A stretch of DNA of 22,196 nucleotides from a virus. This document shows positions 10,941 to 22,084 of the stretch, piece after piece; the stretch's first letter is position 1; each line of letters begins with the position of its first letter. The stretch is taken from positions 160,918-183,113 of IMG/VR virus record IMGVR_UViG_3300026549_000035; one strand, written 5' to 3'. The notes beneath the pieces are model-generated. The model had not been told where the DNA came from. It made no database searches and worked only from the letters and a program-made list of their open reading frames with translations. A program made the position numbers and the translations under genes.

Positions 10941-10957
10941 ATTATTCTCCTTTGTAA

Positions 10958-11128: not shown

Positions 11129-11132
11129 TATT

Positions 11133-11531: not shown

Positions 11532-11537
11532 TACTAT

Positions 11538-11912: not shown

Positions 11913-11921
11913 GATTTTTAT

Positions 11922-12272
11922 TTATCCTTTTTTTTGACAAAGTTCAAAATATGTATCTCCAATTTTTTGTGGTGTTGATTTATACTGACAGTTATGTTCA
12001 TAATCAAGGCAAATATAAGCATTTTTATTATTAGAGCCTTTTATAATACCACATTCCATACAAGTAGACTTTTTATCCTAGTTATCCCAAGAAGAAGTCC
12101 ATTCTTCAACAAGTTCTTTTAAAAGTTCTTGTTCTAATTCAGTTAAACAATAAAAGGGAACCTGTGCCCAAACTTCCTTGTTTTTATTTTCAGATACATT
12201 TTTTTCTATACTATAACAATCATAATTATCATTAAATAAGAGTCTATATTGACCTAAAGTAATAACTTTCAT
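11922..12272 (-). CDS. hypothetical protein. The 64-aa ORF ends at TAG 12080..12078, and the frame stays open for 51 more Cys-containing codons to TAA 11924..11922.
   Basis: The extension reads IKKSTCMECGIIKGSNNKNAYICLDYEHNCQYKSTPQKIGDTYFELCQKKG, which is protein-like and fills the whole intergenic gap up to the next gene's RBS. An alternative is a separate mini-ORF from ATG 12059 with a poor RBS. Confidence 0.45.
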
Positions 12273-12276
12273 ATTA

Positions 12277-12486
12277 TCATTCCTTTTTCTCAGGTTTTCC
12301 CATATTCCATGATTGTCTTGATATAATATTTATCTCACCGTCTAATTTTTCTGAATATTTAAGTTTATTTTTAAAAGCAATAGGTAATTTTTCTTGTAAC
12401 TCTTCTTCAGTTTCCGCAAAAATATATAATTCTTTTATTTGATTTCCCCGAACGGGGGCTTCCGCAAGTATTTGATACAAATTCAT
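12277..12486 (-). CDS. hypothetical protein, 69 aa
   Basis: Strong AAAAAAAAGGAGAGG SD. Ends in TGA. Confidence 0.55.
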   Translation of the reverse strand: MNLYQILAEAPVRGNQIKELYIFAETEEELQEKLPIAFKNKLKYSEKLDGEINIISRQSWNMGKPEKKE

Positions 12487-12586
12487 TTTTTTACCTCTCC
12501 TTTTTTTTCAAATTCTAATCTACTAAATTCAAAAATAGAAATTGTTTAAGCTGACTTATAGGCATATATATTTTTTCTTTTTATCT

Positions 12587-12865
12587 TTATAAATTTTTTT
12601 TTACTTTTTTATATGAATCATAAATATCTAAATCTATTTCTGTTGAGTAATTACTTTTTATTGTTTTATAAATATGTTTTATATAAAGTAAAGTATCTTC
12701 AATATCAATAAAATAAATTTTTGCGGATCCAGACATACTGCCACGTATTTTTACTTGATAACCGTATTTTTTTTCTTTTAACTTAACATATTCTAATCCA
12801 TATCCTTCAACAGCGCCGAAGCCATATGAAAAATGATCTCTTATTAGTCCTAATGTGATTATCAT
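12587..12865 (-). CDS. hypothetical protein, 92 aa
   Basis: AAAGGAAT SD. Ends in TAA. Confidence 0.55.
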   Translation of the reverse strand: MIITLGLIRDHFSYGFGAVEGYGLEYVKLKEKKYGYQVKIRGSMSGSAKIYFIDIEDTLLYIKHIYKTIKSNYSTEIDLDIYDSYKKVKKNL

Positions 12866-12894
12866 ATTATTATTCCTTTTTTGAAAGTTATTTA

Positions 12895-13251
12895 TTATTT
12901 AAAAAATTCAATTTTTTCATATTCTTTATATTTTTTATCAAAATTTTCCTTTACTTCTGGAAAATCGTTAGATATAATAATAAGTATATCGCTTGGAAAA
13001 AAATTAATAATAATATCTTGGTTATTTTTTATAAGGTAGCCGCAATGCACGCCTCGTAGATTTATAATATCTTCATATTCAGTTGGAGAAACTGTAAATT
13101 TAATTTCTCCTATTTCTTTTTCATTACGTTGTAAATTGATAATTAAATTAATTCTTATTCTTTCCCAAAGAGCTTGTTTTAATTCATCATGATATTTTTT
13201 ATTTTCAAGATTTTTATCCCAAAGGATTAGCGGTTTTGGTCTATAATTCAT
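12895..13251 (-). CDS. hypothetical protein, 118 aa; first gene of a long minus-strand operon
   Basis: Class I promoter copy 6 lies immediately upstream. Ends in TAA. Confidence 0.55.
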   Translation of the reverse strand: MNYRPKPLILWDKNLENKKYHDELKQALWERIRINLIINLQRNEKEIGEIKFTVSPTEYEDIINLRGVHCGYLIKNNQDIIINFFPSDILIIISNDFPEVKENFDKKYKEYEKIEFFK

Positions 13252-13288
13252 TATTTTATTTTTCCTTTTTATTATTTTTTCTATATAT

Positions 13289-13317
13289 ATTATAATATAT
13301 TTTTATTAAAAAATCAA
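13289..13317 (-). promoter_or_regulatory. Class I promoter, copy 6; divergent from the plus-strand promoter of the RHH operon
   Basis: Minus strand reads TTGATT (13317..13312), a 17-nt spacer, then TATAAT (13294..13289). Confidence 0.7.
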
Positions 13318-13345
13318 TTGAGAATTTTTTTGTTAAAAAATTTTT

Positions 13346-13373
13346 TTACATTGTAGGACAAAGTTATATAAAT
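13346..13373 (+). promoter_or_regulatory. Candidate plus-strand promoter (TTTACA-16-TATAAA) for the RHH-led operon
   Basis: tttacattgtaggacaaagttatataaa. It contains the half-operator-like TTACATTGTAG. Confidence 0.35.
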
Positions 13374-13418
13374 TATTACAAAGTATTTTTATATATACAT
13401 GAAAGGAAGTGAAAGAAA

Positions 13419-13550
13419 TTGACTACTATTTCAGTTAGAATTGATGACACAGAAAAAAAGAAATTAGAAGAATTTGCCAGAAAAGAAGATTTAACTATGT
13501 CACAAATTATTCGTAAAGCTTTAAAAGAGTATTTAAAAAATAATACATAA
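13419..13550 (+). CDS. ribbon-helix-helix (CopG/Arc/MetJ-like) DNA-binding protein, 43 aa, TTG start
   Basis: The translation TTISVRIDDTEKKKLEEFARKEDLTMSQIIRKALKEYLKNNT has an N-terminal beta-strand followed by two helices. An AAAGGAAG SD is 9 nt before the TTG. It is absent from the ORF track because it is short and uses a TTG start. Confidence 0.55.
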   Translation: MTTISVRIDDTEKKKLEEFARKEDLTMSQIIRKALKEYLKNNT

Positions 13551-13567
13551 GGAGGCTCATAAGCAAA

Positions 13568-13747
13568 ATGCCAATTAACAAAATAATTTATTCAAAAAGA
13601 GTAATGGAGTCTTTAGTTGCTATGGGTAATATACCTCTTAAATCTATGCCTAATCCTTATAAGCCAGAGTTTTAGTGTTGGATTTTTGAAGTTAATGAAA
13701 AATTTTAGAAAGATATAGATAAAATATTAGGTGATAAATATGGTTGA
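13568..13747 (+). CDS. small protein. ATG 13568 sits after a TAAGGAGG SD, 35 codons run to TAG 13673..13675, the frame continues through a second TAG at 13706..13708 to TGA 13745..13747, and it overlaps the next start.
   Basis: MPINKIIYSKRVMESLVAMGNIPLKSMPNPYKPEF then TAG, CWIFEVNEKF then TAG, KDIDKILGDKYG then stop. The read-through text is protein-like and ends in an ATGnnTGA-style overlap with the downstream gene. Confidence 0.4.
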
Positions 13748-14111
13748 GCGCACTTTTATATTTTATCCTGATTGGCTTAATTTTATTGAACGTATTAGTA
13801 ATGAAAAAGATAAATTAGATTTATATGATATTATTGCTTCTTATGGGTGTCATGGAGAATATTCAAATAAAAATCCTATGATGACTGCTGTTTTTGAATC
13901 TTTAATTAAACCTAAAATAGATATTGCGCAAGGTCGTTATGAAGAAAAAATTACTATGGGAAAGAATTATGGACGTAAAAAAATAGTAGATGATAATATG
14001 GTCAAGTAGTTGGCGCAAGAAGGCATGCGCGCAAAAGATATTGCTGAGAAATTAAACGTGTCGGTTGATACGGTTTATCATAGTGATGGATGGAAAAATA
14101 GAAATTTGTAA
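13740..14111 (+). CDS. two-domain DNA-binding protein. An 89-aa N-terminal domain ends at an in-frame TAG (14007..14009) and is followed by a 33-codon sigma70-region-4-like HTH. It is possibly an ArpU/RinA-like regulator or an initiator-like protein.
   Basis: ATG 13740 sits after a TAGGTGAT SD. The frame after the TAG is contiguous and reads LAQEGMRAKDIAEKLNVSVDTVYHSDGWKNRNL, a classic HTH. The internal ATG 14025 is only 1 nt after its AAGAAGG and cannot initiate well. Confidence 0.5.
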
Positions 14112-14262
14112 AAATAGATGTGATTTTTTACAAAAAATATTTGTAAAAATAGATATTGTTTTTACAAAAAATATTTGTAAAAATACAAATTTTATTTGTA
14201 AAAAACAAATTTTTATTTGTAATTTGTAATTTGCTCTATTATCTATTACAAATTACAAATTT
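14101..14262. repeat. Array of TTGTAA/TTACAA half-sites in direct and inverted arrangement, including two 36-bp tandem units TTTGTAAAAATAGAT...TTTTTACAAAAAATA
   Basis: tttgtaaaaatagat appears twice. ttttacaaaaaatatttgtaaaaata appears twice. Also present are tttgtaaaaaacaaat, tttgtaatttgtaattt and attacaaattacaaat. Confidence 0.8.
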
Positions 14263-14281
14263 TCCACTGACGTGGAAAATA
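14262..14281. promoter_or_regulatory. Palindrome TTTTCCAC-N4-GTGGAAAA, a candidate operator
   Basis: ttttccactgacgtggaaaa has 8-bp inverted arms. Confidence 0.4.
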
Positions 14282-14285
14282 TGTT

Positions 14286-14341
14286 AAAGAGTATTTTAAA
14301 AATCCTAGTCGCTTCGCTCCTAGGCTTTTATAAAATACTCT
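14286..14341. repeat. Long imperfect inverted repeat (stem-loop with about 20 bp of stem) followed by a GGGGCTTTTT tract. It may act as a terminator or processing site upstream of 14372..14617.
   Basis: AGAGTATTTTAAAAATCCTAG, loop tcgcttcgctc, CTAGGCTTTTATAAAATACTCT. Confidence 0.5.
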
Positions 14342-14371
14342 AGGGGCTTTTTATGAAAGGAGAAATGAAAA

Positions 14372-14617
14372 ATGAATGATAATATTTTTTCAACAGAAAA
14401 AAATCGTGAAATAAGTGAGCTTCAAGAAAGAATAAAAAGAGATTGGATTTTAAGAGAAACAGACGAAGAAGATGAATATGAGTTAGAAATAGATGAAGAA
14501 GATTTAGAAAATGTTATAGAAGATATTCTTGAAAGACGAGAGAGAAAAAATAGAGAACTCTTAAAAGAGATAGTAGATTTATTAGAAGATATAAAGATAT
14601 ATCTGAGAAGATTATAG
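14372..14617 (+). CDS. highly acidic coiled-coil-like protein, 81 aa. It ends at TAG and is followed 2 codons later by TAA.
   Basis: SD AAAGGAGAAATG. The translation is Glu/Asp-rich: ...EEDEYELEIDEEDLENVIEDILERRERKNRELL. Confidence 0.5.
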   Translation: MNDNIFSTEKNREISELQERIKRDWILRETDEEDEYELEIDEEDLENVIEDILERRERKNRELLKEIVDLLEDIKIYLRRL

Positions 14618-14640
14618 TTTAAATAAAAGGAGGAATTTTT

Positions 14641-14886
14641 ATGGCAGGAATCCCATCAAAAATTGAACCTACTATGAAAGGGAAAAAGTTACCTTTAATA
14701 TAGAGAGTAAAATATCATGAATTAGATAGTTTTCTTAATAGAAAAGATATTGTTAGAGGAGAACTATTTATAGATGAGAACACTGGGGATTTATATGTAG
14801 CAGAAAAAGGCGATGTAGAAACTTATTGGTTAAGATTAGGTAGAACAGATTTAGAAAAAGAAGAACTGGAACAAAACAAAAATCCA
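14641..14886 (+). CDS. hypothetical protein, 81 codons, with an in-frame TAG at 14701..14703. The 61 codons downstream have no ATG, GTG or TTG.
   Basis: AAGGAGG SD 8 nt before ATG 14641. The translation is MAGIPSKIEPTMKGKKLPLI then TAG, then RVKYHELDSFLNRKDIVRGELFIDENTGDLYVAEKGDVETYWLRLGRTDLEKEELEQNKNPFLN then TGA. Confidence 0.5.
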
Positions 14887-15013
14887 TTTTTAAATTGAAA
14901 TTAAAATAAAAATGTGATATTATATAAATAATAAAAAAGGGCTTTTATAAAAATGAATTGAAAATTCATTTTTATAAAAGAAAAATGAAATGAAAAATGA
15001 GGAAGGTAGAAAT

Positions 15014-15412
15014 ATGAATTATTATTATGAGTCAGGTCATATAGGAAATTATAAAGGACATCAAGTTTGGATAATTGATTATAGTAATTTTTATAGAGAA
15101 GATACTATTGATAGTGATGATATTTGGGCAGTAAGAACAGGACCAAATCAAAGTATTAAATTAGTATTAAAAGGATATGAATTTGGTCAAATGAGTCATA
15201 GTGGAGAAGTGTCTTTATATAGAAAAGAGAAGCCTTTTAACTTTTACCATAGAAGAGAAGAAAAGGAAGTTAAAAAAACTCCGGTAGTAGTAGAAGTAAA
15301 AGAGGAGCCTTTAGAAATTAATTATAGTGATTATACTCAACCAGTAGATATGTTTTTTAAGAATCTAAAAGAGTGGTGGAAAGATTTAGATAAGGAGCTT
15401 AAATCAATATAA
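15014..15412 (+). CDS. hypothetical protein, 132 aa. The second ATG, with a GAGGAAGG SD, is preferred over the track start at 14990.
   Basis: MNYYYESGHIGNYKGHQVW... Ends in TAA. Confidence 0.5.
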   Translation: MNYYYESGHIGNYKGHQVWIIDYSNFYREDTIDSDDIWAVRTGPNQSIKLVLKGYEFGQMSHSGEVSLYRKEKPFNFYHRREEKEVKKTPVVVEVKEEPLEINYSDYTQPVDMFFKNLKEWWKDLDKELKSI

Positions 15413-15459
15413 GATAGGTATTCTACCTATTTTATATAGGGTACAGGTTTTATATAGAA

Positions 15460-15575
15460 ATAATTAAAAACTGTGAAGATTATAGTTTTATAGTAAAAAT
15501 TAAGAAATTATATTGAAAATTGTAAAAATTGCGGTTTTATATTAAAAATTGCAATTCTATGTAGAAAATTGTGGT
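15460..15575. repeat. Iteron-like AAAATTG(Y) repeats phased at about 10 and 20 bp
   Basis: aaaattg copies begin at 15516, 15525, 15545 and 15565, with variant copies upstream. Confidence 0.6.
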
Positions 15576-15579
15576 TTAG

Positions 15580-15620
15580 TGGTGGCCCCGTTCGGTGTTA
15601 ATTGTAACACCATTTTATCG
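15580..15620 (+). other. CCCCGTTCGGTG motif (inverted copy of the island motif) plus the GGTGTTA-ATTG-TAACACC hairpin with a T-tract
   Basis: ggtggccccgttcggtgttaattgtaacaccattttat. Confidence 0.5.
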
Positions 15621-15640
15621 TAATCGTCATCGTTATCATA

Positions 15641-15689
15641 ATAAATAAAAAACCCTTGAGCAACTCGCTCAAGGGTTTTTCTTATTTTC
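15641..15689. terminator. Bidirectional rho-independent terminator
   Basis: AAAAAACCCTTGAGC, loop AACTC, GCTCAAGGGTTTTTCTTATTTT. Confidence 0.85.
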
Positions 15690-15696
15690 ACTTTTA

Positions 15697-16131
15697 TTAT
15701 CTAACCATTCGATTAAGGAAATCCTCAATAGGGTCGACTGCATGAACTGCACCAGCCTTTTGGCTCTTATTTTTCAATGCTTCGAGCTCCTGGCTTAGCT
15801 CAATATACTTAGTGAGAAAAGGAAGAGATTCATCGATAACTTTAACGATCTCTTCTGGATCAGCCTCTTCGATAGCATCAAGAATCTCATCATCAACCTC
15901 ATAAACTGCCAAAAGATCTTCAAATGCAAAGAGAACTGCTTCTACAGCCGCTATCTTCTGGGCAAAAAGATTATCCTGCTTTGCTTTTGCTTCAGCTTCT
16001 GCTTTTTTGGCAGCTTCCGCAGCCTTATGCTTCTCATTTGCTTCGTTCAAGCTCTTGGTAAGTGATGCAGCAATATCTTCCGCCGACTCACCATTCTGTA
16101 GACGCTCAAGAATCTCATTTGTATAATCCAT
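15697..16131 (-). CDS. acidic Ala/Glu/Lys-rich protein, 144 aa; paralog of 2660..3058
   Basis: GC-richer than its surroundings. Class I promoter copy 7 is immediately upstream and a strong terminator lies downstream. Ends in TAA. Confidence 0.65.
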   Translation of the reverse strand: MDYTNEILERLQNGESAEDIAASLTKSLNEANEKHKAAEAAKKAEAEAKAKQDNLFAQKIAAVEAVLFAFEDLLAVYEVDDEILDAIEEADPEEIVKVIDESLPFLTKYIELSQELEALKNKSQKAGAVHAVDPIEDFLNRMVR

Positions 16132-16166
16132 TTATAAAAACCTCTTTTCTTTTATTTTCTATATAT

Positions 16167-16195
16167 ATTATATCAAAAATTTTTATAAAAATCAA
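16167..16195 (-). promoter_or_regulatory. Class I promoter, copy 7
   Basis: Minus strand reads TTGATT (16195..16190), a 17-nt spacer, then TATAAT (16172..16167). Confidence 0.7.
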
Positions 16196-16199
16196 ATTT

Positions 16200-16705
16200 A
16201 GGCTCGTAAAGCCACGAAAATTTTTCTGTGGAAAGAAATTCATGAGAACTTCCTTTTGGATAGCTGGGCTGATAAAAATCAGCCTTTGTAAATACGCCAT
16301 AGCAAAGATGAGAACTATGCGTTTTTCCCCGAACGGACATCCGAACGGGAATGGACAGGAACGAAAGAGCTGCGGAAAATTTTTGGTTTTTTTTAATATT
16401 ATACCAAAAAATTTTTTGAAAGTCAAACAAGTAATTATAAAAACAAACACCGAGCGGGGCCGGCAAGTAACTTTCAAATGAGATAAAAGCCATATGGGGC
16501 AAACACCGAACGGGGGCCCGCCCGGGGGGGCAGAGTGGTAAAAAAAAATTTCCCATTTCGGGAAAATGAGATGCCATATGGGGGGCCGCACTTGCCCTCG
16601 AAAAATTTGCATATGGGGTTAGGTGCGGGAATTCGGGCGACGTCTATTGTCGTCGGCCCGATGATTTTATCGCTTTAAGCCACTAAAGTGCCCGGGCGCA
16701 AACCC
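16200..16705. other. GC-rich non-coding island with reiterated CACCGAACGGGG and CATATGGGG motifs and several hairpins. The overlapping track ORFs here are judged spurious.
   Basis: caccgagcgggg at 16448, caccgaacgggg at 16504, ccccgaacgg and ccgaacggg near 16326..16347. catatgggg appears three times near 16491, 16575 and 16610. A bulged hairpin GGGCGACG...CGTCGGCCC is also present. Confidence 0.6.
16538..16568 (-). terminator. Rho-independent terminator for the minus-strand class II unit arrays
   Basis: Minus strand reads ATTTTCCCGAAATGGGAAAT followed by TTTTTTTTT. Confidence 0.7.
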
Positions 16706-16707
16706 TA

Positions 16708-16926
16708 TTAATTAATAGGGGGCGCAATTTTAGTAATCATATTTTCATAAAGGCATATTAATCCTTGATCGAAATGAACCCAAGGAATCATGTCACCCTC
16801 ACGATTCAAGATATACCAACCGACAGTCTTTTTCTTCTCTCTCCAATCCCAAAATTCACACCAGTAGTGAGAGACAAAGCGAGGCCTAATTTTCGTATTC
16901 CACCAAAATCTGAAGTTTGTAAACAT
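16708..16926 (-). CDS. hypothetical Trp-rich small protein, 72 aa
   Basis: It has its own class II promoter. The stop TAA is embedded in the hairpin CCCTATTAATTAATAGGG. Confidence 0.5.
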   Translation of the reverse strand: MFTNFRFWWNTKIRPRFVSHYWCEFWDWREKKKTVGWYILNREGDMIPWVHFDQGLICLYENMITKIAPPIN

Positions 16927-16956
16927 CTTTATTATCTCCTTTTCTTTGATGTATTT

Positions 16957-16985
16957 ATTATAGCGTGAATAAATTAAAATGTCAA
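16957..16985 (-). promoter_or_regulatory. Class II promoter: TTGACA-17-TATAAT, no operator
   Basis: Minus strand reads TTGACA TTTTAATTTATTCACGC TATAAT, then the conserved leader AAATACATCAAAGAAAAGGAG. Confidence 0.7.
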
Positions 16986-16991
16986 GAGTTT

Positions 16992-17174
16992 TTAAAAATC
17001 TTCTTTTCTTTTTATGATTCGTTTATTATTTTTTGAATCAATAATAATAACATACTTATCACCTACACGAGCACGCCAATGGTGAGAAAAGAAGTAGTCT
17101 GCAATAGTTTCCTTGTTATTATCACAGACAGACCAAGTATGATCTGAAAATAAAAGAATTACTTTATCAATCAT
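16992..17174 (-). CDS. hypothetical small protein, 60 aa; weakly similar to the 16708..16926 product (SHHW / SHYW motif)
   Basis: Own class II promoter and operator. Ends in TAA. Confidence 0.45.
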   Translation of the reverse strand: MIDKVILLFSDHTWSVCDNNKETIADYFFSHHWRARVGDKYVIIIDSKNNKRIIKRKEDF

Positions 17175-17203
17175 TTTTATCTCTCCCTTTTTTTGATATA
17201 TTT

Positions 17204-17252
17204 ATTATAACATACTATAACTTAATTGTCAATAATTATTACAATTTTGTAA
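17204..17252 (-). promoter_or_regulatory. Class II promoter (TTGACA-17-TATAAT) with the upstream operator TTACAA-TT-TTGTAA (17239..17252)
   Basis: tgtcaa at 17227..17232, attata at 17204..17209 and ttacaattttgtaa at 17239..17252 on the plus strand. Confidence 0.7.
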
Positions 17253-17265
17253 CCAGCCCGGGTGC

Positions 17266-17292
17266 AGTTCTCTCACCAGTGGAGAGAGAACA
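17266..17292 (-). other. Stop-overlapping hairpin GTTCTCTC...GAGAGAAC at the end of 17273..17560
   Basis: gttctctcaccagtggagagagaac. Confidence 0.5.
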
Positions 17293-17560
17293 CATAGCTT
17301 ACCTTATGATTAAATTTAACTTGATATCCTAATGTTTCGTAATAATTACGAATAATAGTATTTCTTTCATCTGTGTCCAAATCATAAAAACGGTTTCTAT
17401 CTTGAAATCTTAGAAGGATACAAGTTTCGCCCCTACTTGCGGCTGTTTCTATTAACTTATCAAAACGATTAAACTCAGAAAAAAGATAGCTATTAGCAAT
17501 TTCTTTTCTCTTTGTTTGAGCTTCTGTGGCTATCTGTCTTGCTTCTTTTGCACTAATCAT
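17273..17560 (-). CDS. hypothetical protein, 95 aa
   Basis: AAAGGAG SD 9 nt upstream. In an operon 5 nt after 17566..17832. Ends in TGA. Confidence 0.55.
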   Translation of the reverse strand: MISAKEARQIATEAQTKRKEIANSYLFSEFNRFDKLIETAASRGETCILLRFQDRNRFYDLDTDERNTIIRNYYETLGYQVKFNHKVSYVFSLHW

Positions 17561-17565
17561 CTTAT

Positions 17566-17832
17566 TTACTCCTTTTCTAAACAGCGATTAATAAATCGAC
17601 TTATCTTATCTTCTGCAACAGAAACTTCTTTTAAAAGTGAAAATAAGAAATCATTAAAATTATCGTCATAATAAAGAGCGACAAAACTATTGATATCCCC
17701 AGTACCGTGAGTTTCTTCTGCGATAAAATCAGTAATAAGGTCAATCATGCGAGTTACTATCTGAACAGCTTGTAAATTTTTTTCATCAAGATTTAAAGAA
17801 ACCTTTATTACTTTTTCAGAGTCTATTGTCAT
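17566..17832 (-). CDS. hypothetical acidic protein, 88 aa
   Basis: Class II promoter and operator upstream. Ends in TAA. Confidence 0.55.
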   Translation of the reverse strand: MTIDSEKVIKVSLNLDEKNLQAVQIVTRMIDLITDFIAEETHGTGDINSFVALYYDDNFNDFLFSLLKEVSVAEDKISRFINRCLEKE

Positions 17833-17863
17833 TTTTTTTATCTCCTTTTCTTTTGATGTATTT

Positions 17864-17917
17864 ATTATAGCACATCAAGATAAAAAAGTCAATAGTTAAA
17901 ATATTACAATTTTGTAA
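17864..17917 (-). promoter_or_regulatory. Class II promoter (TTGACT-17-TATAAT) with the operator TTACAATTTTGTAA (17904..17917) and the GCCCGGGCG box (17921..17929)
   Basis: agtcaa at 17887..17892 and attata at 17864..17869. The conserved leader is AAATACATCAAAAGAAAAGGAGATAAAAAAAATG. Confidence 0.7.
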
Positions 17918-17942
17918 TCTGCCCGGGCGCAAACCCCTTTGA

Positions 17943-18294
17943 TTAATCATCTTCAAAGGGGCATTCGTCAAACCAAGGACAAGAAGAAGCGCAAGATTCA
18001 GCAGAATCATCACATGGAACATTTAACTTGAAATCATCGGGAAGTGGGAGAGGAGGAAATATTACTTGATCATTTATGATGTGCGCTCCTGACTCAAGAG
18101 CTTCTGCGATGTCAAACCCTTGGAGCCAATCAAGTAAGGCTTCTGCGCAACTTTTTTAAGCAGGTATCCTCATCAACCTTTTGACGGTATTTATCACAAG
18201 CTGTCCAATCGCCTACTTCATAGATAGGACAATCATTACAATAAACTGTTGCTTTGTCAATAAGTTTTTTAAGTTTATTATCATTTACAATCAT
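17943..18294 (-). CDS. Cys-rich protein, about 117 aa, interrupted by a +1 frameshift at an A6 run (minus-strand heptamer A_AAA_AAG, plus-strand T6 at 18152..18157)
   Basis: Frame 0 from ATG 18294 reads MIVNDNKLKKLIDKATVYCNDCPIYEVGDWTACDKYRQKVDEDTCLKK and then stops soon at TGA 18132. The +1 frame is open from just before the A-run to TAA 17945 and reads KSCAEALLDWLQGFDIAEALESGAH...NVPCDDSAESCASSCPWFDECPFEDD. Removing one A joins the two frames. Confidence 0.5.
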
Positions 18295-18332
18295 TTTTAT
18301 AACCTCTCTTCTTAACCTTTTGGAACAAGCTC

Positions 18333-18590
18333 TTAGTAATCAACACTAATGTAACACGCTTCACCACGAGTCATACCATTTTCAAGTAAAACTTCTGCAA
18401 CATAACGCTCAGGTTTATTTAATTCCTCAAAATCTTTTTCATCTTTAGGAATCCAAAAATAAATTGCGCCACTTTGTGGAGGGCAGTATGATTCGTTAAA
18501 TTCTCCTTCTACATCTTCACCATATTTTTTTTGAATAAGGGTAAAAACTTCACTGGAATCATACACTTTATACATTTTGAACTGAAACAT
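18333..18590 (-). CDS. hypothetical protein, 85 aa
   Basis: Class II promoter and operator upstream. Ends in TAA. Confidence 0.55.
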   Translation of the reverse strand: MFQFKMYKVYDSSEVFTLIQKKYGEDVEGEFNESYCPPQSGAIYFWIPKDEKDFEELNKPERYVAEVLLENGMTRGEACYISVDY

Positions 18591-18620
18591 TTTTTTATCT
18601 CCTTTTCTTTTGATGTATTA

Positions 18621-18669
18621 AGTATAACACAGTCAGAAGAAAAAGTCAATAGCTATTACAATTTTGTAA
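18621..18669 (-). promoter_or_regulatory. Class II promoter (TTGACT-17-TATACT) with the operator TTACAATTTTGTAA (18656..18669) and the GCGCCCGGGCGC box (18684..18695)
   Basis: agtcaa at 18644..18649 and agtata at 18621..18626. Confidence 0.65.
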
Positions 18670-18695
18670 CTTTTTTTTTATTGCGCCCGGGCGCT

Positions 18696-18800
18696 CGGAG
18701 GCGTTTACACTCGCTATCCGAGGCACTACTCAGGAACGTGGTAGGAGCACGTCACTCTTTTCATGTCCTACCCTCGAATAGCAACTGTAAACGCCCCCAG
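18696..18800. ncRNA. A ~105-nt GC-rich long imperfect hairpin (about 30 bp paired in three stem segments) inserted between a gene-end hairpin and a promoter box. It is a candidate structured RNA or protein-binding palindrome of unknown class.
   Basis: Outer stem GGCGTTTACA/TGTAAACGCC, middle stem GCTATCCGAGG/CCTCGAATAGC with one wobble pair, inner stem GGTAGGA/TCCTACC. A 17-nt asymmetric loop contains ACGTG. It fails a tRNA cloverleaf test. Confidence 0.35.
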
Positions 18801-18805
18801 GGGGG

Positions 18806-18828
18806 GTTGAGGGGTTAACCCTCAACCT
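18806..18828 (-). other. Perfect 9-bp hairpin GGTTGAGGG-GTTAA-CCCTCAACC overlapping the stop of 18815..19212
   Basis: ggttgaggggttaaccctcaacc. Confidence 0.6.
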
Positions 18829-19212
18829 CAGCAGGAGCTTCATAGACTCCCACAGGAGCGAAGTAGGTTCTGCGCTTTACGCTACCCTTAGACAGCTCAC
18901 CGGCCTGAATAGCCTGACGAAGCAAAGCAGAAACATGCTGATTGCTGTCGCCTTCAACCGCAGGACACTCTTTGAGCAAATCGCTAACGGTGTAACCGTT
19001 CGACCCCTCAACAAAGTGAGTATCGATATACTCTACCAGACGCTCACGAACAACAGCGTTCTCAGTCTGACGAGCGGTAGGTTTACGCTCTATGCCAGAC
19101 TTCTTGTCGAGCTGTTCAACCATCTTCTGGAGCTTCTCAGCTACCTCGGTAGGCAGGTCATAACTCTCCAAACATAAGCAAGAGCCTTACGGTTAGTCAT
19201 CTTATTAGTCAT
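18815..19212 (-). CDS. GC-rich (roughly 50% by eye) putative DNA-binding protein of uncertain fold. The RBS-supported start ATG 19212 is out of frame by 1 nt with the long ORF, so there is a frameshift or indel near 19166..19176.
   Basis: AAAGGA SD 9 nt before ATG 19212, which gives MTNKMTNRKALAYV. The long ORF from TTG 19171 has no SD and reads ESYDLPTEVAEKLQKMVEQLDKK... Inserting one T in the TTT run joins them as ...ALAYVLESYDL.... Codon composition is unlike its neighbours. Confidence 0.5.
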
Positions 19213-19290
19213 AGTATCAATCCTTTCAGCGTTGGTCGCCACCCAAATTTTTATTGTCAAGGGAGGTTTTCCTTCCCTTTGACTGTCTTT

Positions 19291-19345
19291 ATTATATCAC
19301 ATAGAGAGGAAAAAGTCAAGGGGGTTTTCAAATTTTTTTGAAAAT
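19291..19345 (-). promoter_or_regulatory. Class II-type promoter (TTGACT-17-TATAAT) with a different upstream palindrome, TTTTCAAA-N4-TTTGAAAA (19326..19345), and a structured leader
   Basis: agtcaa at 19314..19319 and attata at 19291..19296. The leader hairpin GTCAAAGGGAAGG-AAAA-CCTCCCTTGAC is at 19256..19286. Confidence 0.55.
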
Positions 19346-19533
19346 CTGTTTCGTTACCGTGTATCCACAAAAGAGAGAACCTCGTGGGAGGGACTTTTTA
19401 TCTCTCTCCCCTTGACTGTAATATTATTATAGCAGATTCAATTGGTTTTGTCTATTGGCAAAATGCACAAAGGATTTTCAACATTTTGTTTTATTTTGTG
19501 CATTTTGCCGGGGCACCCGGGCGCTGAGTGCTA

Positions 19534-19866
19534 TTACGAAATAAAGGCAATAGCACGACAGTCAGGCTTCCACTCAAAAAACTTTTCTAAGTGATATTTA
19601 TTATAGAATTTTAAAAATGCTTGTTCATCTTTTGGATTTAAAACATACTTATCTTTATTAAATTCTTTAATATCTTCACCATAGTCAAGGATAGTATACA
19701 CAACCCCAACAAAATGCTCTTCGTCTGCCCAATCATTAAGGCATTTTGCCCATTTGTTTTCCCAGCCTTCACGGTCATTAATATCCTCAATAATATCTTC
19801 AATTGCTTCAAAATCTTCTTTACTAATAATTATGCCGTAACCAATAGCAAAAGAAAAATCTATAGC
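19534..19866 (-). CDS. hypothetical protein, about 110 aa from ATG 19866
   Basis: An AAAGGAG SD lies 9 nt before ATG 19866, and the track start at 19878 abuts the SD. It is in an operon after 19897..20337. The stop is embedded in the hairpin GTGCTATT...AATAGCAC. Confidence 0.5.
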   Translation of the reverse strand, partial: AIDFSFAIGYGIIISKEDFEAIEDIIEDINDREGWENKWAKCLNDWADEEHFVGVVYTILDYGEDIKEFNKDKYVLNPKDEQAFLKFYNKYHLEKFFEWKPDCRAIAFIS

Positions 19867-19896
19867 CATTTTTTTCATCTCCTTTCTTTGTCCCCC

Positions 19897-20337
19897 TCAA
19901 GCCGCAAGAAGCGACTTGAGGGTTTCAATCATTTCATCAGCAGGACAAGCACGACCTGTCCATGCTTCAAGGTGTCGAACTTCATCATCAAACAGAATAT
20001 CCTCGCCAGAATTTACATCATTTTTTGTAAACCAGTAAGGAACAAAACGAATCTCATCAAAACGAACGCTTTTAAGGTGACGATTAAGCCACATTTTTTT
20101 TGCCTTGATTACTGCTTCATCATATTCTGCGGAGCTGTTCTTTGACAAAGCGGTAACAATGCAAATTTCAAAACCGTTGCGCTGAACTCTATTCATCAGC
20201 CGAGCCAGAAGCGAAAGATTTACAAGGGGTTTTGCTTCTGCGTAGGGGGTAGGGTCAGAATTGATTAACTTTTCAAGCCAATCATTAACCCCATAAAGGT
20301 CAGCAATAGTGCCGTCCATGTCAAACCAAATTCTCAT
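19897..20337 (-). CDS. HAD-superfamily 5'(3')-deoxyribonucleotidase (NT5C/YorS-like)
   Basis: The N-terminal HAD motif I WFDMDGTIADL (DxDGT) and the overall 146-aa size and pattern match phage and Bacillus 5'-nucleotidases. Ends in TGA. Confidence 0.6.
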   Translation of the reverse strand: MRIWFDMDGTIADLYGVNDWLEKLINSDPTPYAEAKPLVNLSLLARLMNRVQRNGFEICIVTALSKNSSAEYDEAVIKAKKMWLNRHLKSVRFDEIRFVPYWFTKNDVNSGEDILFDDEVRHLEAWTGRACPADEMIETLKSLLAA

Positions 20338-20360
20338 AGGGTATCAATCCTTTCTCTCTT

Positions 20361-20389
20361 TGATGTATTTATTATATCATACTCTAAAT
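20361..20389 (-). promoter_or_regulatory. Class II promoter (TTGACA-17-TATAAT), no TTACAA operator. The GCGCCCGGGCG box is at 20456..20466.
   Basis: tgtcaa at 20384..20389 and attata at 20361..20366. Conserved leader AAATACATCAAAGAGAGAAAGGA. Confidence 0.65.
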
Positions 20390-20469
20390 AAAATGTCAAT
20401 ACTTTTTCTATTATTATTATAACAAATTTTTTAATATTTTTCAAAGAAGTCTTTTTGCGCCCGGGCGTA

Positions 20470-20504
20470 AATTAAAAAGCGGAATGTAAAGGCATTCCGC
20501 TTTA
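20470..20504 (-). terminator. Rho-independent terminator for 20502..20705; 11-bp perfect stem
   Basis: AAAGCGGAATG, loop TAAAGG, CATTCCGCTTT, with TTTAATTT on the minus strand. Confidence 0.65.
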
Positions 20505-20705
20505 ACAATTATCTGAAAAACAACCCAAATAAGGATCATAGCCTACTTCATAATCACAATCATCTATTTCAGACTCATTGTTATAATAAGCTGCTTCATC
20601 ACATTCTAAGATAGGATTACTCTCAGGGTACATGGAGCAATTACCATACTTATAATAAGGACAAGTACAATCTGCTACAGGACACTCAAAAACTTTTTTA
20701 TTCAT
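20502..20705 (-). CDS. small Cys-rich protein, 67 aa from ATG 20705
   Basis: An AAAGG SD lies 9 nt upstream. The translation MNKKVFECPVADCTCPYYKYGNCSMYPESNPILECDE...CDYEVGYDPYLGCFSDNC has 9 Cys. Ends in TAA. Confidence 0.5.
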   Translation of the reverse strand: MNKKVFECPVADCTCPYYKYGNCSMYPESNPILECDEAAYYNNESEIDDCDYEVGYDPYLGCFSDNC

Positions 20706-20738
20706 TAGTATCAACCTTTCTTCTTTTATTGTGATTAT

Positions 20739-20803
20739 AGTATAGCATGAAAAAATTATTTTGTCAAGGATTTTTTGGTTACAATCTTGTAATCTGCCCG
20801 GGG
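20739..20803 (-). promoter_or_regulatory. Class II promoter (TTGACA-17-TATACT) with the operator TTACAA-TC-TTGTAA (20779..20792) and the GCCCGGGG box
   Basis: tgtcaa at 20762..20767 and ttacaatcttgtaa at 20779..20792. Confidence 0.65.
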
Positions 20804-20807
20804 CGAA

Positions 20808-20834
20808 GCCAGACCTCCCCCATTAAAAGGGGAG
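20808..20834 (-). other. Perfect 9-bp hairpin GACCTCCCC-ATTAAAA-GGGGAGGTC overlapping the stop of the HD gene
   Basis: gacctcccccattaaaaggggaggtc. Confidence 0.6.
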
Positions 20835-21433
20835 GTCGCTGTCGTCAAGGATAAAATCCTCGGGGTGAGCGTCAATCTCATACTCTGCGGTAAGAGTAGG
20901 AATATCCCAAAATGACCTTGAAGCAATATAATCAGACAAGTGAACAAGGCGGTCAACAGGGGTGAAAGGTCTATCTTCTTTCGGCTCAGTCCATTGACCC
21001 ATGTGTGACTTAATCGCCAGTAAAAGCACTTCGGGAGCTTCTTCATTGAAAAATTCCTGCCATGCTTCTTTAACAGCATTTGAAGCGTGCAAACCGTGTT
21101 GCTTGAAGCAATTTTTATCTTCTTCTAAACCGCCGTATTTATAAGTGTCGTGAAGAATACAAGCGACTTTTGCATAATCTTTGTATTCATCTCTCATATA
21201 CGCATAAGTATTCATGCGTAAAAGTTCTTCACATACCATCACAACGGCTCTTGTATGACGAATTAAACCGCCCTCGCCCTGAGCGAATACAGGGTGATAT
21301 TTACCAGAAGAAGAAGCCCCAGACTTTTTAAACCATTCCCCAACACGAGTGTCAAGAAAAAATCGAGTGAAGTCTTTCAAATCTTCGCTTTGGATAAGCT
21401 GGATTTCACGCTCAAAAAATTTACTTAACTGCA
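20823..21433 (-). CDS. HD-domain metal-dependent phosphohydrolase, about 203 aa from ATG 21433
   Basis: H..H (GKYHP...IRHTRAV), HD (ACILHDTYKYG), H (HGLHASN) and D (LVHLSDY) motifs. An AAAGGA SD is 10 nt before ATG 21433. The track start at 21533 would run through the promoter and operator, so it is rejected. Confidence 0.6.
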
Positions 21434-21459
21434 TTTGTATCAAATCCTTTCTCTCTTTG

Positions 21460-21531
21460 ATTACAATGTAATTATAGCACACTCTGTCGGAAATGTCAAT
21501 AGTTATTACAAAATTGTAACCGCGCCCGGGC
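21460..21531 (-). promoter_or_regulatory. Class II promoter (TTGACA-17-TATAAT) flanked by two operators, TTACAAAATTGTAA (21505..21518, upstream) and TTACAATGTAA (21460..21470, over the -10/+1), plus the CGCGCCCGGGC box
   Basis: tgtcaa at 21493..21498 and attata at 21470..21475. Confidence 0.65.
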
Positions 21532-21546
21532 AAAAAATGGGAAGTT

Positions 21547-22070: not shown

Positions 22071-22084
22071 TGTTTTATTTCCTT

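What the first reader, a model, noticed from the sequence alone, without database searches (positions are those of the whole stretch)
16200..16705. GC-rich non-coding island with CACCGAACGGGG and CATATGGGG repeats between the early-promoter region and the class II array
About 500 bp, far GC-richer than the flanks, with CACCGAACGGGG-type motifs at 16326, 16339, 16448 and 16504 and an inverted copy at 15587. CATATGGGG appears three times and there are several hairpins (GGGCGACG...CGTCGGCCC, GGCTGAT-AAAA-ATCAGCC) and a minus-strand terminator at 16538..16568. The predicted ORFs here (139, 165 and 134 aa) mutually overlap and have odd composition, so they are probably not real. Candidates for the island are a pac/cos or terminase-recognition site, an origin, a recombination site, or one or more structured ncRNAs. 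The inverted motif pair at 15587 and 16448 brackets the 15697..16131 gene.
Basis: seen in the sequence. Interest (0 to 1): 0.65.

Follow-up and report, generated by a model that had tools for sequence, protein, structure and literature searches.

The report
Conserved non-coding hub in rumen phage
The GC-rich island is a real, gene-free stretch of about 520 bases that is better conserved than its neighbouring genes in a group of uncultivated rumen phages; it holds two strong promoters, a terminator and several conserved hairpins, matches no known RNA family, and its function is not yet known.

Summary
Window 16197-16725 is non-coding and GC-rich (0.45-0.60 against 0.31), and the named motifs are far above chance.

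It is not an assembly artefact. Homologous islands sit directly upstream of homologues of the 144-aa gene (15697-16131, minus strand) in every related contig that reaches that far. This holds even where that protein is only about 41% identical. The island is more conserved than the gene.

The working strand is the minus strand. In order it carries a GC palindrome, a covarying hairpin, an invariant 27-nt block, three CCCCATATG copies, an intrinsic terminator and a CCGNNCGG hairpin. Then come an invariant sigma-70-type promoter (P2) with about 190 nt and no ORF, and a second promoter (P1) for the gene.

A 16-nt motif, GGCCCCGWTCGGTGTT, is repeated in inverted orientation about 100 nt beyond the gene in 12 loci, with a degenerate core in the most distant relative.

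There is no tRNA, Rfam, Pfam or GenBank-phage match. The window's long ORFs are not kept in relatives.

Best reading, with moderate confidence: a transcribed regulatory and non-coding RNA locus at the end of the early-gene array. A DNA-level protein-binding role is a live rival. Origin or packaging roles could not be tested.

The phage also appears to read TAG as a sense codon. The island lies at the edge of the TAG-free early genes.

The parts
16703..16720 (-). Palindromic hairpin CCCTATTAATTAATAGGG overlapping the stop codon of the 72-aa gene, followed by TTTG. It is the terminator-like end of the preceding early cassette.
   Evidence: I18. Relatives have a different hairpin at the same place. 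The same layout occurs at five other cassettes.
16688..16699 (.). GC palindrome GTGCCCGGGCGC, one of six dispersed copies of GCGCCCGGGCGC in the early array.
   Evidence: 6 copies against 0.03 expected. Searches give the context and show copies in related loci.
16673..16688 (-). Small AU hairpin CUUUA-N6-UAAAG. It sits where the other cassettes carry the dyad TTACAA-NN-TTGTAA.
   Evidence: Support is weak (RNAalifold pairs 37-54).
16634..16660 (-). Hairpin Hb: a GC-rich stem of 9-11 bp with one bulge. It occurs in two sequence types among relatives.
   Evidence: helix 1 is 86% paired, with three pairs changed on both sides; one G.U on this strand in L023.
16610..16636 (-). Near-invariant block CCGAAUUCCCGCACCUAACCCCAUAUG, including the first CCCCAUAUG copy.
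   Evidence: invariant columns. It is single-copy in each genome. It has no match in 185,579 bacterial and archaeal genomes or in IMG/VR.
16575..16583 (-). Second CCCCAUAUG copy (CATATGGGG on the + strand).
   Evidence: Every related island has 2-5 CATATG copies.
16540..16565 (-). Intrinsic terminator T1: UUUCCC-GAAAU-GGGAAA followed by U9.
   Evidence: It is present in the window-like group and in L031 (in L031 with a shifted stem, CCCG-AAAA-CGGG). It is absent in L013, L023 and L028.
16506..16525 (-). Hairpin R2hp: CCGGGCGG-GCCC-CCGUUCGG, two CCGNNCGG units 12 nt apart.
   Evidence: pair tables; helix 3 is 92% paired. G.U pairs occur on this strand only.
16502..16518 (-). Motif UP1, GGCCCCCGUUCGGUGUU, present in all related islands.
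16491..16499 (-). Third CCCCAUAUG copy, followed on the minus strand by GCUUUUAUC.
16436..16463 (-). Motif UP2, GGCCCCGCUCGGUGUU, followed by UGUUUUUAU. It is a weak terminator-like site found only in the window-like group.
   Evidence: site 16465-16448..
16398..16426 (-). Promoter P2: TTGACT, 17-nt spacer, TATAAT with an upstream TG. It is invariant in all relatives and no ORF follows it.
   Evidence: 11 of 12 positions, TG present. (invariant columns).
16197..16391 (-). R3: an RNA of about 190 nt predicted to start just downstream of P2. It would be either a separate small RNA or a long leader of the 144-aa gene.
   Evidence: MFE -53.4 kcal/mol, z = -4.0; z = -2.8 to -4.2 on this strand in the window-like group and L031. 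(covariation). The mini-ORF at 16244 is lost in L023 and L031.
16327..16349 (-).
   Evidence: It is a perfect 20-nt palindrome in L013.
16267..16284 (-). Hairpin H6: GGCUGAU-UUUU-AUCAGCC.
   Evidence: helix 2 has three pairs changed on both sides.
16201..16213 (-). Small GC hairpin GGCUU-UAC-GAGCC just before P1. It may be a weak terminator of R3.
   Evidence: helices 3 and 4. The sequences differ in L028 and L023 but a hairpin is kept.
16167..16195 (-). Promoter P1: TTGATT, 17-nt spacer, TATAAT with TG, driving the 144-aa gene. It is a repeated promoter cassette and the point where the assemblies branch.
   Evidence: Similar cassettes occur elsewhere in the window.
15697..16131 (-). 144-aa acidic, all-helical protein gene that accompanies the island in every relative reaching that far.
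   Evidence: No family or fold match.
15648..15680 (.). Bidirectional intrinsic terminator closing both converging transcription units.
   Evidence: Compensatory changes in relatives.
15584..15611 (+). Inverted copy (DN) of GGCCCCGTTCGGTGTT. Its 3' end forms the 5' arm of a hairpin followed by AUUUUAU on the + strand.
   Evidence: Found beyond the gene in 12 loci, with only a degenerate CCGAACGG core in L033 and L034.

Best explanation
The island is a conserved, non-coding, minus-strand locus at the downstream end of the phage's early-gene array. It works mainly through transcription and RNA.

**Shown**
- It has no conserved ORF.
- It evolves more slowly than the adjacent gene.
- It contains two sigma-70-type promoters that are invariant or nearly so. 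P2 has about 190 nt and no ORF behind it. P1 lies directly before the 144-aa gene.
- It has one strong intrinsic terminator (T1).
- It has at least five local hairpins kept by compensatory changes.
- Wobble pairs occur only on the minus strand.

**Inferred**
- Early transcripts coming from the right run into the GC-rich part (16430-16700) and are stopped or processed there by T1 and the CCGNNCGG hairpins.
- Host RNA polymerase starts again at P2 and makes a structured RNA of about 190 nt. This RNA either ends at the small hairpin before P1 (a separate small RNA) or continues as a long leader of the 144-aa gene.
- P1 gives a second, leaderless-style transcript of that gene.
- The repeated CCGAACGG-type motifs are the arms of two GC hairpins.
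- The longer motif GGCCCCGWUCGGUGUU faces incoming transcription on both sides of the P2-to-terminator cassette. It is probably a recognition site for a protein acting on RNA or DNA that controls entry into, or expression of, this cassette.

The invariant 27-nt block and the CCCCAUAUG repeats are most likely sequence-specific contact sites. Their partner is unknown.
For: **Conservation.**
- Homologous islands lie directly upstream of the 144-aa homologue in every related contig that reaches that far.
- Island nucleotide identity exceeds that of the gene. For window against L013 it is 0.66 against 0.52, with third codon positions at 0.33.

**Non-coding.**
- There is no Pfam hit.
- The stop-free runs of 156-162 codons in the window fall to 59-74 in L011, L023 and L031.

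**Promoters and terminator.**
- The scan finds P2 at 11 of 12 positions with TG and P1 at 10 of 12 with TG. P2 is invariant and P1 nearly so across all lineages.
- T1 is found by the scan. L031 keeps it with a different stem.

**Structure.**
- R3 on the minus strand has z = -4.0, with 0 of 200 shuffles as stable.
- Hairpin pair counts: 83.7% and 87.6% of cells are paired. Covariation scores are 0.118 against 0.062 and 0.142 against 0.084. In both cases 0 of 500 shuffles reach them, and the slid controls are far lower.
- There are 7 G.U pairs and 0 A.C pairs on the minus strand across three hairpins.

**Motif placement.**
- UP1 and DN read the same way on the locally transcribed strand.
- Each is followed within 0-15 nt by a U-rich tract, in 12 loci.
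Against: - No transcript data are available.
- The GC-rich part (16430-16700) has no recognisable promoter of its own.
- In L013 and L023 a strong terminator lies in front of that part and T1 is missing, so its transcription is not assured in all lineages.
- Its folding energy is not unusual for its composition, with z = -0.3 to -3.2 on either strand.
- RNAalifold gives a covariation term near zero for the whole segments.
- The most conserved pieces are conserved as sequence in different pairing contexts. UCCCGAAA is a stem in the window but a loop in L028.
- Many motifs are dyad-symmetric (CCGATCGG, CCATATGG, GCCCGGGC). That pattern is typical of sites for dimeric DNA-binding proteins.
- The alignment holds only about six independent lineages, so the covariation statistics are weak.
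Confidence: 0.45

Rival explanations
1. The island is a DNA-level protein-binding array. The dyad motifs (CCGWWCGG within GGCCCCGWTCGGTGTT, CCATATGG, GCCCGGGC) would be operators for a phage DNA-binding protein. Candidates are the 144-aa protein itself, or the DUF6291 plus HTH_7 protein encoded 1.6 kb away. The protein would bind on both sides of the P2/P1-gene cassette and regulate it, possibly by looping, as the lambda OL and OR operators flank cI.
For: - The motifs are palindromic or nearly so, and they recur 3-6 times per island.
- The outer CCG and CGG triplets are invariant, while the central two bases vary freely and often do not pair.
- The inverted copy beyond the gene is kept in 12 loci. 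In the most distant relative (L033), which has the most divergent protein, only a CCGAACGG core with changed flanks remains.
- The 16430-16700 part has no promoter and no unusual folding energy.
- The conserved blocks keep their sequence in different structural contexts.
- A DNA-binding protein gene with DUF6291 and HTH_7 domains is nearby in the related loci that extend far enough.
- The first 35 residues of the 144-aa protein are its most conserved part. They weakly resemble a LuxR-type helix-turn-helix (E = 0.53).
Against: - Wobble pairs are one-sided: 7 G.U against 0 A.C.
- Hairpin Hb shows compensatory changes at three pairs, which a double-stranded site does not need.
- Overall palindrome enrichment is only about twofold over shuffles.
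- The distance from UP1 to P2 varies from 56 to 93 nt, so there is no fixed phasing.
- The 144-aa model is one long helical bundle with no detected DNA-binding fold.
Confidence: 0.28
2. The island is a replication origin, or a packaging or terminal-repeat boundary site. In this reading it marks the inner edge of a long terminal repeat that carries the early genes, as in SPO1- and K-like phages. Alternatively it acts with the neighbouring iteron-like repeats as an origin activated by transcription from P2 and P1.
For: - It is a single-copy element per genome and is strongly conserved.
- It sits exactly where the array of small early genes with host-type promoters ends.
- Proteins in the window resemble those of SPO1-like and Enterococcus myoviruses. 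In that group early host-takeover genes lie in long terminal repeats (PMC6445280).
- Tandem promoters are flanked by stretches of 6-18% GC.
- Iteron-like repeats with a 20-21 nt period lie at 15440-15580, next to the inverted motif copy.
Against: - No read data are available.
- Contig ends that fall within the island (L020, L022, L030, L007) are at different positions.
- The iteron-like repeats lie outside the island and are not conserved in the more distant relatives.
- No initiator or terminase gene is adjacent.
- The one-sided wobble pairs point to a single transcribed strand.
Confidence: 0.12
3. The inverted 16-nt repeats are recombination sites or terminal inverted repeats. The 0.9-kb segment between them (P2, R3, P1, the gene and the terminator) would then be an invertible or mobile cassette.
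For: - Inverted repeats of 14-16 nt lie 840-940 bp apart and flank a promoter-bearing segment in 12 loci.
- The core is dyad-symmetric.
- A protein with a resolvase-type HTH_7 domain is encoded nearby.
Against: - All loci that show both arms have the same orientation relative to the flanks.
- The HTH_7 protein has 123 residues and no recombinase catalytic domain.
- There are no target-site duplications (read directly from the flanks).
- Inversion would not change what the two internal promoters drive.
- The one rearranged variant found (ENA ERZ27252065) breaks at promoter P1, not at the repeats.
Confidence: 0.03
4. The island is not a functional element. It would be a decayed gene cassette or pseudogene, a real small gene with odd composition, or an assembly chimera.
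For: - The gene caller of one collection called a 134-aa ORF here (L010).
- Two assemblies branch at 16148-16195.
Against: - Conservation exceeds that of the flanking gene.
- The ORFs are broken in relatives and have no Pfam match.
- The same island-promoter-gene order occurs in independent assemblies from several studies.
- The Logan contig breaks are explained by 30-mers of the promoter that are repeated within the genome.
Confidence: 0.02

Closest known systems
PeSL (promoter-early stem-loop) composite terminator/promoter cassettes of T4-like phages (PMC2839356, PMC4122927)
   Same: - The surrounding array is built from repeated units. Each unit has a terminator hairpin, a conserved motif and a host-type early promoter in front of a small gene.
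- One strain differs from the window by an insertion bounded by two promoter copies. This is the kind of indel that PeSLs mediate.
- The island starts with such a unit and ends with such a promoter.
   Different: - The phage lineage is different (relatives of SPO1-like myoviruses of Firmicutes), and there is no sequence similarity to T4 PeSLs.
- The cassettes carry an extra 12-nt GC palindrome and a TTACAA-NN-TTGTAA dyad.
- The island is ten times longer than a PeSL and is single-copy.
- It holds about 400 nt of conserved sequence that is neither promoter nor terminator.
Phage-encoded small RNAs and structured leaders transcribed from host-type early promoters, for example the put RNAs of HK022 (from my own knowledge, not tested here)
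   Same: An invariant strong promoter (P2) is followed by a structured RNA of about 190 nt with no ORF, lying upstream of terminators and a gene.
   Different: - No sequence or structure match to any Rfam family.
- No evidence that it modifies RNA polymerase.
- Structure conservation is clear only for local hairpins.
Operator sets flanking a regulator gene, for example lambda OL and OR around cI (from my own knowledge)
   Same: Copies of one dyad-like motif lie in inverted orientation on both sides of a small gene and next to its promoters.
   Different: The enclosed protein has no recognised DNA-binding fold. Binding has not been tested. The hairpins show signs of selection at the RNA level.
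Long-terminal-repeat boundaries of SPO1- and K-like myoviruses (PMC6445280, PMC5418689)
   Same: The island lies at the edge of an array of small early genes with bacterial-type promoters. The phage shares proteins with this group.
   Different: No terminal repeat or physical end could be shown. The known terminus sequences quoted in PMC5418689 (AGGTTTT...) are unrelated.

Membership tests
Any Rfam 15 RNA family (including ROOL, GOLLD, HDV-like, hammerhead, twister, 6S, tmRNA) | Covariance-model score at or above the family's gathering threshold | tested here: not met
   0 matches in the whole window; with E up to 10, the only matches inside the island are two microRNA models lying on the AT-rich promoter.
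tRNA / tmRNA | Cloverleaf detected by ARAGORN | tested here: not met
   none in the window or in L007-L010.
Theta (HDV-like) ribozymes of recoded phages (PMC10879173) | HDV-like fold with its cleavage site next to a tRNA | tested here: not met
   No tRNA and no HDV-family match. I did not run a dedicated HDV descriptor.
Intrinsic (Rho-independent) terminator | GC-containing hairpin followed directly by a U tract on the transcribed strand | tested here: met
   minus-strand stem at 16565-16549 followed by nine T. L031 keeps it with a changed stem. This applies to that part only.
Sigma-70/sigma-A type promoter | -35 and -10 hexamers with a 17-nt spacer and an extended -10 TG | tested here: met
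   P2 is TTGACT/17/TATAAT with TG, and P1 is TTGATT/17/TATAAT with TG. P2 is invariant and P1 nearly so in relatives. Promoter activity is not testable here.
PeSL-type composite terminator/promoter cassette | A stem-loop followed by an early promoter, repeated between small genes | tested here: met
   for the surrounding array and for the island's two ends.
PeSL-type composite terminator/promoter cassette | Short (tens of nt) and multi-copy, with the whole element repeated | tested here: not met
   The island is about 520 nt, and its internal blocks occur once per genome.
Invertible DNA segment (Hin/Gin type) | Inverted repeats flanking the segment | tested here: met
Invertible DNA segment (Hin/Gin type) | A recombinase gene in or next to the segment, and both orientations present in populations | tested here: not met
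   No recombinase domain in the neighbours. All loci that show both arms have the same orientation.
pac/cos site or terminal-repeat boundary | Coincides with physical DNA ends, shown by a coverage step or a pile-up of read starts | not testable with these tools
   No reads are available. Contig ends within the island are scattered.
Iteron-type replication origin | An array of direct repeats for an initiator, next to an AT-rich unwinding region and an initiator gene | tested here: inconclusive
   Repeats with a 20-21 nt period lie beside the island at 15440-15580, not inside it. They are not kept in distant relatives. No initiator was identified.
Protein-coding gene | An ORF kept in relatives, or family homology | tested here: not met
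CRISPR-like repeat or RNA anti-CRISPR | Direct repeats of 28-37 nt with regular spacing | tested here: not met
   The longest direct repeat is 16 nt in two copies (D11), and the second copy is missing in L013, L023 and L031.

The most novel reading that the evidence does not exclude
The island is a new kind of phage control locus. A polar 'gate' motif, GGCCCCGWUCGGUGUU, is placed against incoming transcription on both sides of a cassette. It would act together with a promoter-driven structured RNA and an invariant 27-nt recognition block. Together they would time the hand-over from the TAG-free early genes, which are readable in the host's code, to the TAG-containing genes of a code-15 phage.
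Probability: 0.1. Interest if true: 0.8.

Novelty: new variant of a known kind. Interest (0 to 1): 0.55.

Why it matters
- **A strongly constrained non-coding element.** Non-coding elements that evolve more slowly than their neighbouring genes are rare in phages. Those that do usually mark key control points such as origins, packaging sites, switches or regulatory RNAs.
- **A new handle on an uncultivated group.** This element matches no catalogued family. It belongs to a group of large rumen phages that appear to read TAG as an amino acid.
- **A suggestive position.** It sits where the genes readable in the standard code end. If it takes part in early-to-late control, it would make the unsolved question of how recoded phages time their code switch directly testable.
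- **Value even if it is an ordinary regulatory region.** The repeated unit of terminator, GC palindrome, dyad and promoter extends the PeSL idea of modular gene shuffling from T4-like phages to a phage group of Gram-positive hosts.

Tried and rejected
- **tRNA or tmRNA.** None found.
- **Known RNA families.** None found.
- **Similarity to GenBank phages.** Only a 71-nt chance-level match outside the island.
- **IMG/VR.** No relatives by protein or by three DNA patterns. The six matches to the 16-mer were chance hits in high-GC contigs.
- **Bacterial and archaeal genomes.** The 27-nt block is absent, so it is not a host mimic or a prophage element in sequenced species.
- **Coding potential.** Rejected. 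A mini-ORF with a good ribosome-binding site at 16244 is not kept: the ATG becomes ACG in L023, and L031 has a stop after 4 codons. A plus-strand peptide beginning MGQTPNG is conserved only because the DNA is conserved, and its frame differs in L023.
- **One global RNA fold for 16430-16700.** Not supported. A pseudoknot between CCGCAC/GUGCGG and two CAUAUG copies works in the window group but not in L013.
- **Long-range duplex between UP1 and DN.** The differences between the two arms are not compensatory.
- **Cluster of restriction sites as a decoy.** Palindromes are only about twofold enriched, mostly because of CATATG.
- **Function of the 144-aa protein.** No family or fold match.
- **Second copy of the 27-nt block at 9204.** A partial match inside a gene, judged to be chance.
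- **Chimeric assembly.** Rejected.
Full report
**1. The observation**

The window averages 31.3% GC. In 300-nt windows, GC rises to 0.447, 0.500 and 0.423 between 16300 and 16899. At finer scale it reaches 0.52-0.60 between 16450 and 16675. A trough of 16-18% GC lies at 16375-16445.

- CACCGARCGGGG occurs at 16448 and 16504 (+) and 15586 (-). A one-mismatch copy lies at 12446. That is 4 matches against 0.22 expected, reached by 0 of 100 shuffles.
- CATATGGGG occurs three times against 0.08 expected.
- The two named hairpins are present, as is the minus-strand terminator.
- The three overlapping ORFs exist.

The description is therefore correct, apart from small coordinate shifts.

**2. It is not an artefact, and it is conserved**

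Exact look-ups of the two flanking proteins returned two assemblies.

- In the Logan assembly, the contigs meet at 16166-16195 with a 30-nt overlap.
- In ENA ERZ27252065, the 177.5-kb contig matches the window only up to 16195. It then continues for 480 nt with a different gene.
- The 6.4-kb ENA contig matches 22133 down to 16148. It then continues with 458 nt of different non-coding sequence.

So the left edge of the island, promoter P1, is a branch point. The join in the window is nevertheless genuine. Homologues of the 72-aa protein and of the 144-aa protein led to related contigs from several studies.

In every contig that reaches far enough, a gene-free stretch of about 530-600 nt homologous to the island lies directly upstream of the 144-aa homologue (nhmmer; alignments). 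These contigs are L011, L012, L013, L021, L023, L025, L026, L028, L029 and L031. L020, L022 and L030 are partial.

The upstream neighbour differs between lineages. The unit is therefore the island plus the 144-aa gene, beginning on the minus strand at TTGCGCCCGGGC.

The ENA strain is best read as carrying an insertion between two promoter copies. The frequent Logan contig starts 40-65 nt upstream of the gene (L008, L024, L027, L032) reflect promoter 30-mers that are repeated in the genome.

The island is more conserved than the gene beside it. For window against L013, nucleotide identity is 0.66 in the island, 0.52 in the gene and 0.33 at third codon positions. The other distant pairs give similar values.

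**3. It is non-coding**

- None of the island ORFs has a Pfam match.
- The stop-free runs of 156-162 codons in the window shrink to 59-74 codons in L011, L023 and L031.
- A mini-ORF at 16244 and a plus-strand peptide are not conserved.

**4. Anatomy, read on the minus strand**

The promoter and terminator scan shows that the region to the right of the island is an array of small minus-strand genes. Each has a consensus sigma-70-type promoter (17232, 16985, 17892, 18649, 19319, 19454). The island has the following parts.

- a) **Hairpin at 16703-16720.** It overlaps the stop codon of the 72-aa gene.
- b) **GC palindrome at 16688-16699.**
- c) **Small AU hairpin at 16673-16688.**
- d) **Hairpin Hb at 16634-16660.**
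- e) **A 27-nt block at 16610-16636,** invariant or nearly so in all lineages.
- f) **CCCCAUAUG copies** at 16610, 16575 and 16491.
- g) **Intrinsic terminator T1 at 16540-16565.**
- h) **Hairpin R2hp at 16506-16525.** It is built from two CCGNNCGG units and overlaps motif UP1.
- i) **Motif UP2 with a U tract at 16436-16463.** It occurs only in the window-like group.
- j) **Promoter P2 at 16398-16426.** It is invariant, and its spacer and extended -10 are also invariant.
- k) **R3 at 16197-16391.** It has several hairpins and no ORF.
- l) **Promoter P1 at 16167-16195,** followed by the ribosome-binding site of the 144-aa gene.

Beyond the gene lie a bidirectional terminator (15648-15680) and the inverted motif copy DN (15584-15599). 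The 3' half of DN forms the 5' arm of a plus-strand hairpin followed by AUUUUAU.

**5. Evidence for structure and for the strand**

- *R3.* It folds with z = -4.0 on the minus strand and -2.9 on the plus strand. In the window-like group and L031 the minus-strand z is -2.8 to -4.2. It is weaker in L013, L023 and L028.
- *The GC-rich part upstream of P2.* It is not unusually stable on either strand, with z = -0.3 to -3.2.
- *Whole-segment folds.* RNAalifold consensus folds have covariation terms near zero.
- *Local hairpins.* These are supported.
  - In alignment A8 (Hb, T1 and R2hp), 83.7% of cells pair. The covariation score is 0.118 against 0.062 for shuffles, reached by 0 of 500. Sliding the partners drops pairing to 24-55%.
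  - Hb has three pairs with changes on both sides: C-G/G-C/G.U, C-G/U-A and U-A/C-G.
  - In alignment A9 (R3hp1, H6 and the hairpin before P1), 87.6% of cells pair. The score is 0.142 against 0.084, reached by 0 of 500.
- *Strand.* Across Hb, R2hp and R3hp1 there are 7 G.U pairs and no A.C pairs on the minus strand. All other mismatches are pyrimidine-pyrimidine. This favours pairing on the minus strand, as RNA or as single-stranded DNA.
- *Caveat.* Only about six independent lineages are represented.

**6. What argues for recognition by sequence**

- The 27-nt block, UCCCGAAA and GGCCCCGWUCGGUGUU are conserved as sequence while their pairing context changes. UCCCGAAA is half of the T1 stem in the window but a loop in L028.
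- In each CCGNNCGG unit the outer triplets are invariant. The two central bases vary and often do not pair.
- CATATG is present 2-5 times in every island.
- Overall palindrome enrichment is only about twofold.
- All island blocks occur once per genome.
- The 27-nt block is absent from one genome for each of 185,579 bacterial and archaeal species, and from IMG/VR.
- The inverted copy of the 16-nt motif lies 90-100 nt beyond the stop codon of the 144-aa gene in 12 loci, including L032, whose protein is 38% identical. In L033 and L034 (39% identical) only the core CCGAACGG remains, with changed flanks.
- The two arms are 840-940 bp apart. Both read GGCCCCGWUCGGUGUU on the strand that is locally transcribed towards the cassette. 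Each is followed within 0-15 nt by a U-rich tract.
- Differences between the arms are not compensatory, so a long-range duplex is not supported.
- No locus shows the segment inverted.

**7. Context**

*Relatives.* The window's proteins resemble those of Enterococcus EF1-like myoviruses, SPO1, CP-51 and Clostridium phage c-st. One related contig comes from a set labelled STEW19, which I take to be a cattle-rumen study. The rumen origin is my inference from that label.

*Early array.* The early array to the right of the island is built from repeated units. Each has a terminator hairpin with a T run, then the palindrome GCGCCCGGGCGC, then often the dyad TTACAA-NN-TTGTAA, then a promoter.

- The palindrome has six copies in the window against 0.03 expected.
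- The core GCCCGGGC has 4-9 copies in the longer related loci, and none to the left of the island. One search shows the context.
- This is the same logic as the PeSL cassettes of T4-like phages (PMC2839356, PMC4122927). The insertion in the ENA strain, bounded by promoter copies, fits PeSL-type shuffling.

*Genetic code.* The gene calls of the source collection read TAG as a sense codon.

- Eight of 21 genes on L007 (window 5697-16195) have in-frame TAG, and none ends in TAG.
- One of these is a protein whose HTH_7 domain lies after the TAG.
- The 13 genes of the early array and the 144-aa gene have no in-frame TAG.
- The island therefore lies at the boundary between the TAG-free early genes and the TAG-containing genes. 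That pattern is known from recoded gut phages (PMC10879173, PMC9523058).

*The 144-aa protein.* It is acidic and all-helical (mean pLDDT 83), and it has no family or fold match.

**8. Explanation**

I commit to a transcription- and RNA-level regulatory locus, with confidence of about 0.45.

- Early transcripts are stopped or processed in the GC-rich part.
- P2 makes a structured RNA of about 190 nt, either a small RNA or a long leader.
- P1 gives a second transcript of the gene.
- The 16-nt motif, the 27-nt block and the CCCCAUAUG repeats are contact sites for an unknown partner.

The main rival, at about 0.28, is that the motifs are double-stranded operators flanking the cassette. The two readings are not exclusive. 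Origin or packaging roles (about 0.12) could not be tested without reads. Inversion or mobility, coding, and chimera are largely excluded.

**9. Novelty and score**

No catalogued family matches. The architecture extends a known kind, composite terminator/promoter cassettes and phage non-coding RNAs. The additions are a long single-copy conserved core and a conserved inverted motif pair, so I rate it a new variant of a known kind.

Interest is 0.55. The element is real, strongly constrained and unexplained, and it lies at a suggestive boundary in a phage that appears to be recoded. Its mechanism remains inferred.

Noticed in passing
window 5697-16195 (= L007), for example 13740-14111, and 8742-9338: The phage appears to read TAG as a sense codon (code-15-like). 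Eight of 21 called genes have in-frame TAG and none ends in TAG. One of them is a DUF6291 plus HTH_7 protein whose second domain lies after the TAG. The 13 early-array genes (16708-22133) and the 144-aa gene have no in-frame TAG. No suppressor tRNA lies in the window.
   Followed up: partly
window 16688, 17919, 18683, 19513, 20457, 21522: The 12-nt GC palindrome GCGCCCGGGCGC (up to 2 mismatches) occurs six times against 0.03 expected. Each copy follows a terminator hairpin and precedes the next sigma-70 promoter, often with the dyad TTACAA-NN-TTGTAA in between. The core GCCCGGGC recurs 4-9 times in the longer related loci and is absent to the left of the island.
   Followed up: partly
window 18690-18805, minus strand: A second GC-rich non-coding stretch folds into one long imperfect hairpin (MFE -73 kcal/mol, z = -7.1). 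It is conserved in L011, L012, L021 and L025 and has no Rfam match. It is a candidate structured RNA.
   Followed up: partly
window 18815-19240, minus strand: A GC-rich (about 52%) gene looks frameshifted at a T run near 19165. An ATG-started frame (MTNKMTNRKALAYV) runs into the TTG-started 118-aa ORF. This could be a sequencing error, a pseudogene or a programmed shift.
   Followed up: no
window 15440-15580: AT-rich iteron-like repeats (ATAAAACCRCAATTT on the minus strand, period about 20-21 nt) lie between the plus-strand operon and the inverted motif copy. Their number varies among close relatives (5 in L012). The sequence is different in distant relatives.
   Followed up: partly
L009 5990-6447 and L007 1-480 (ENA ERZ27252065): This strain has extra sequence between the island and the 144-aa gene, bounded by two promoter copies. 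The part next to the island is non-coding. It has repeated GAGAG-N-ATACAGCAAA and a tRNA T-arm-like GGTTCGATTCC, but ARAGORN finds no tRNA.
   Followed up: partly
window 12442-12459: A perfect hairpin TTTCCCCGAACGGGGGC of the same CCGAACGG type lies inside the 69-aa ORF 12277-12486. A CCGNNCGG core also occurs within the apparently corresponding small gene of L011.
   Followed up: no
window 1665-1611, 4946-4879, 5572-5481, 6945-6839, 8654-8588: Promoter-leader cassettes similar to P1 recur in front of several minus-strand genes to the left of the island (nhmmer).
   Followed up: no
window 16634-16660 and the same position in relatives: Hairpin Hb exists in two unrelated sequence types. L028 and L029 are otherwise nearly identical but carry different types. 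This suggests exchange of the hairpin by recombination.
   Followed up: no
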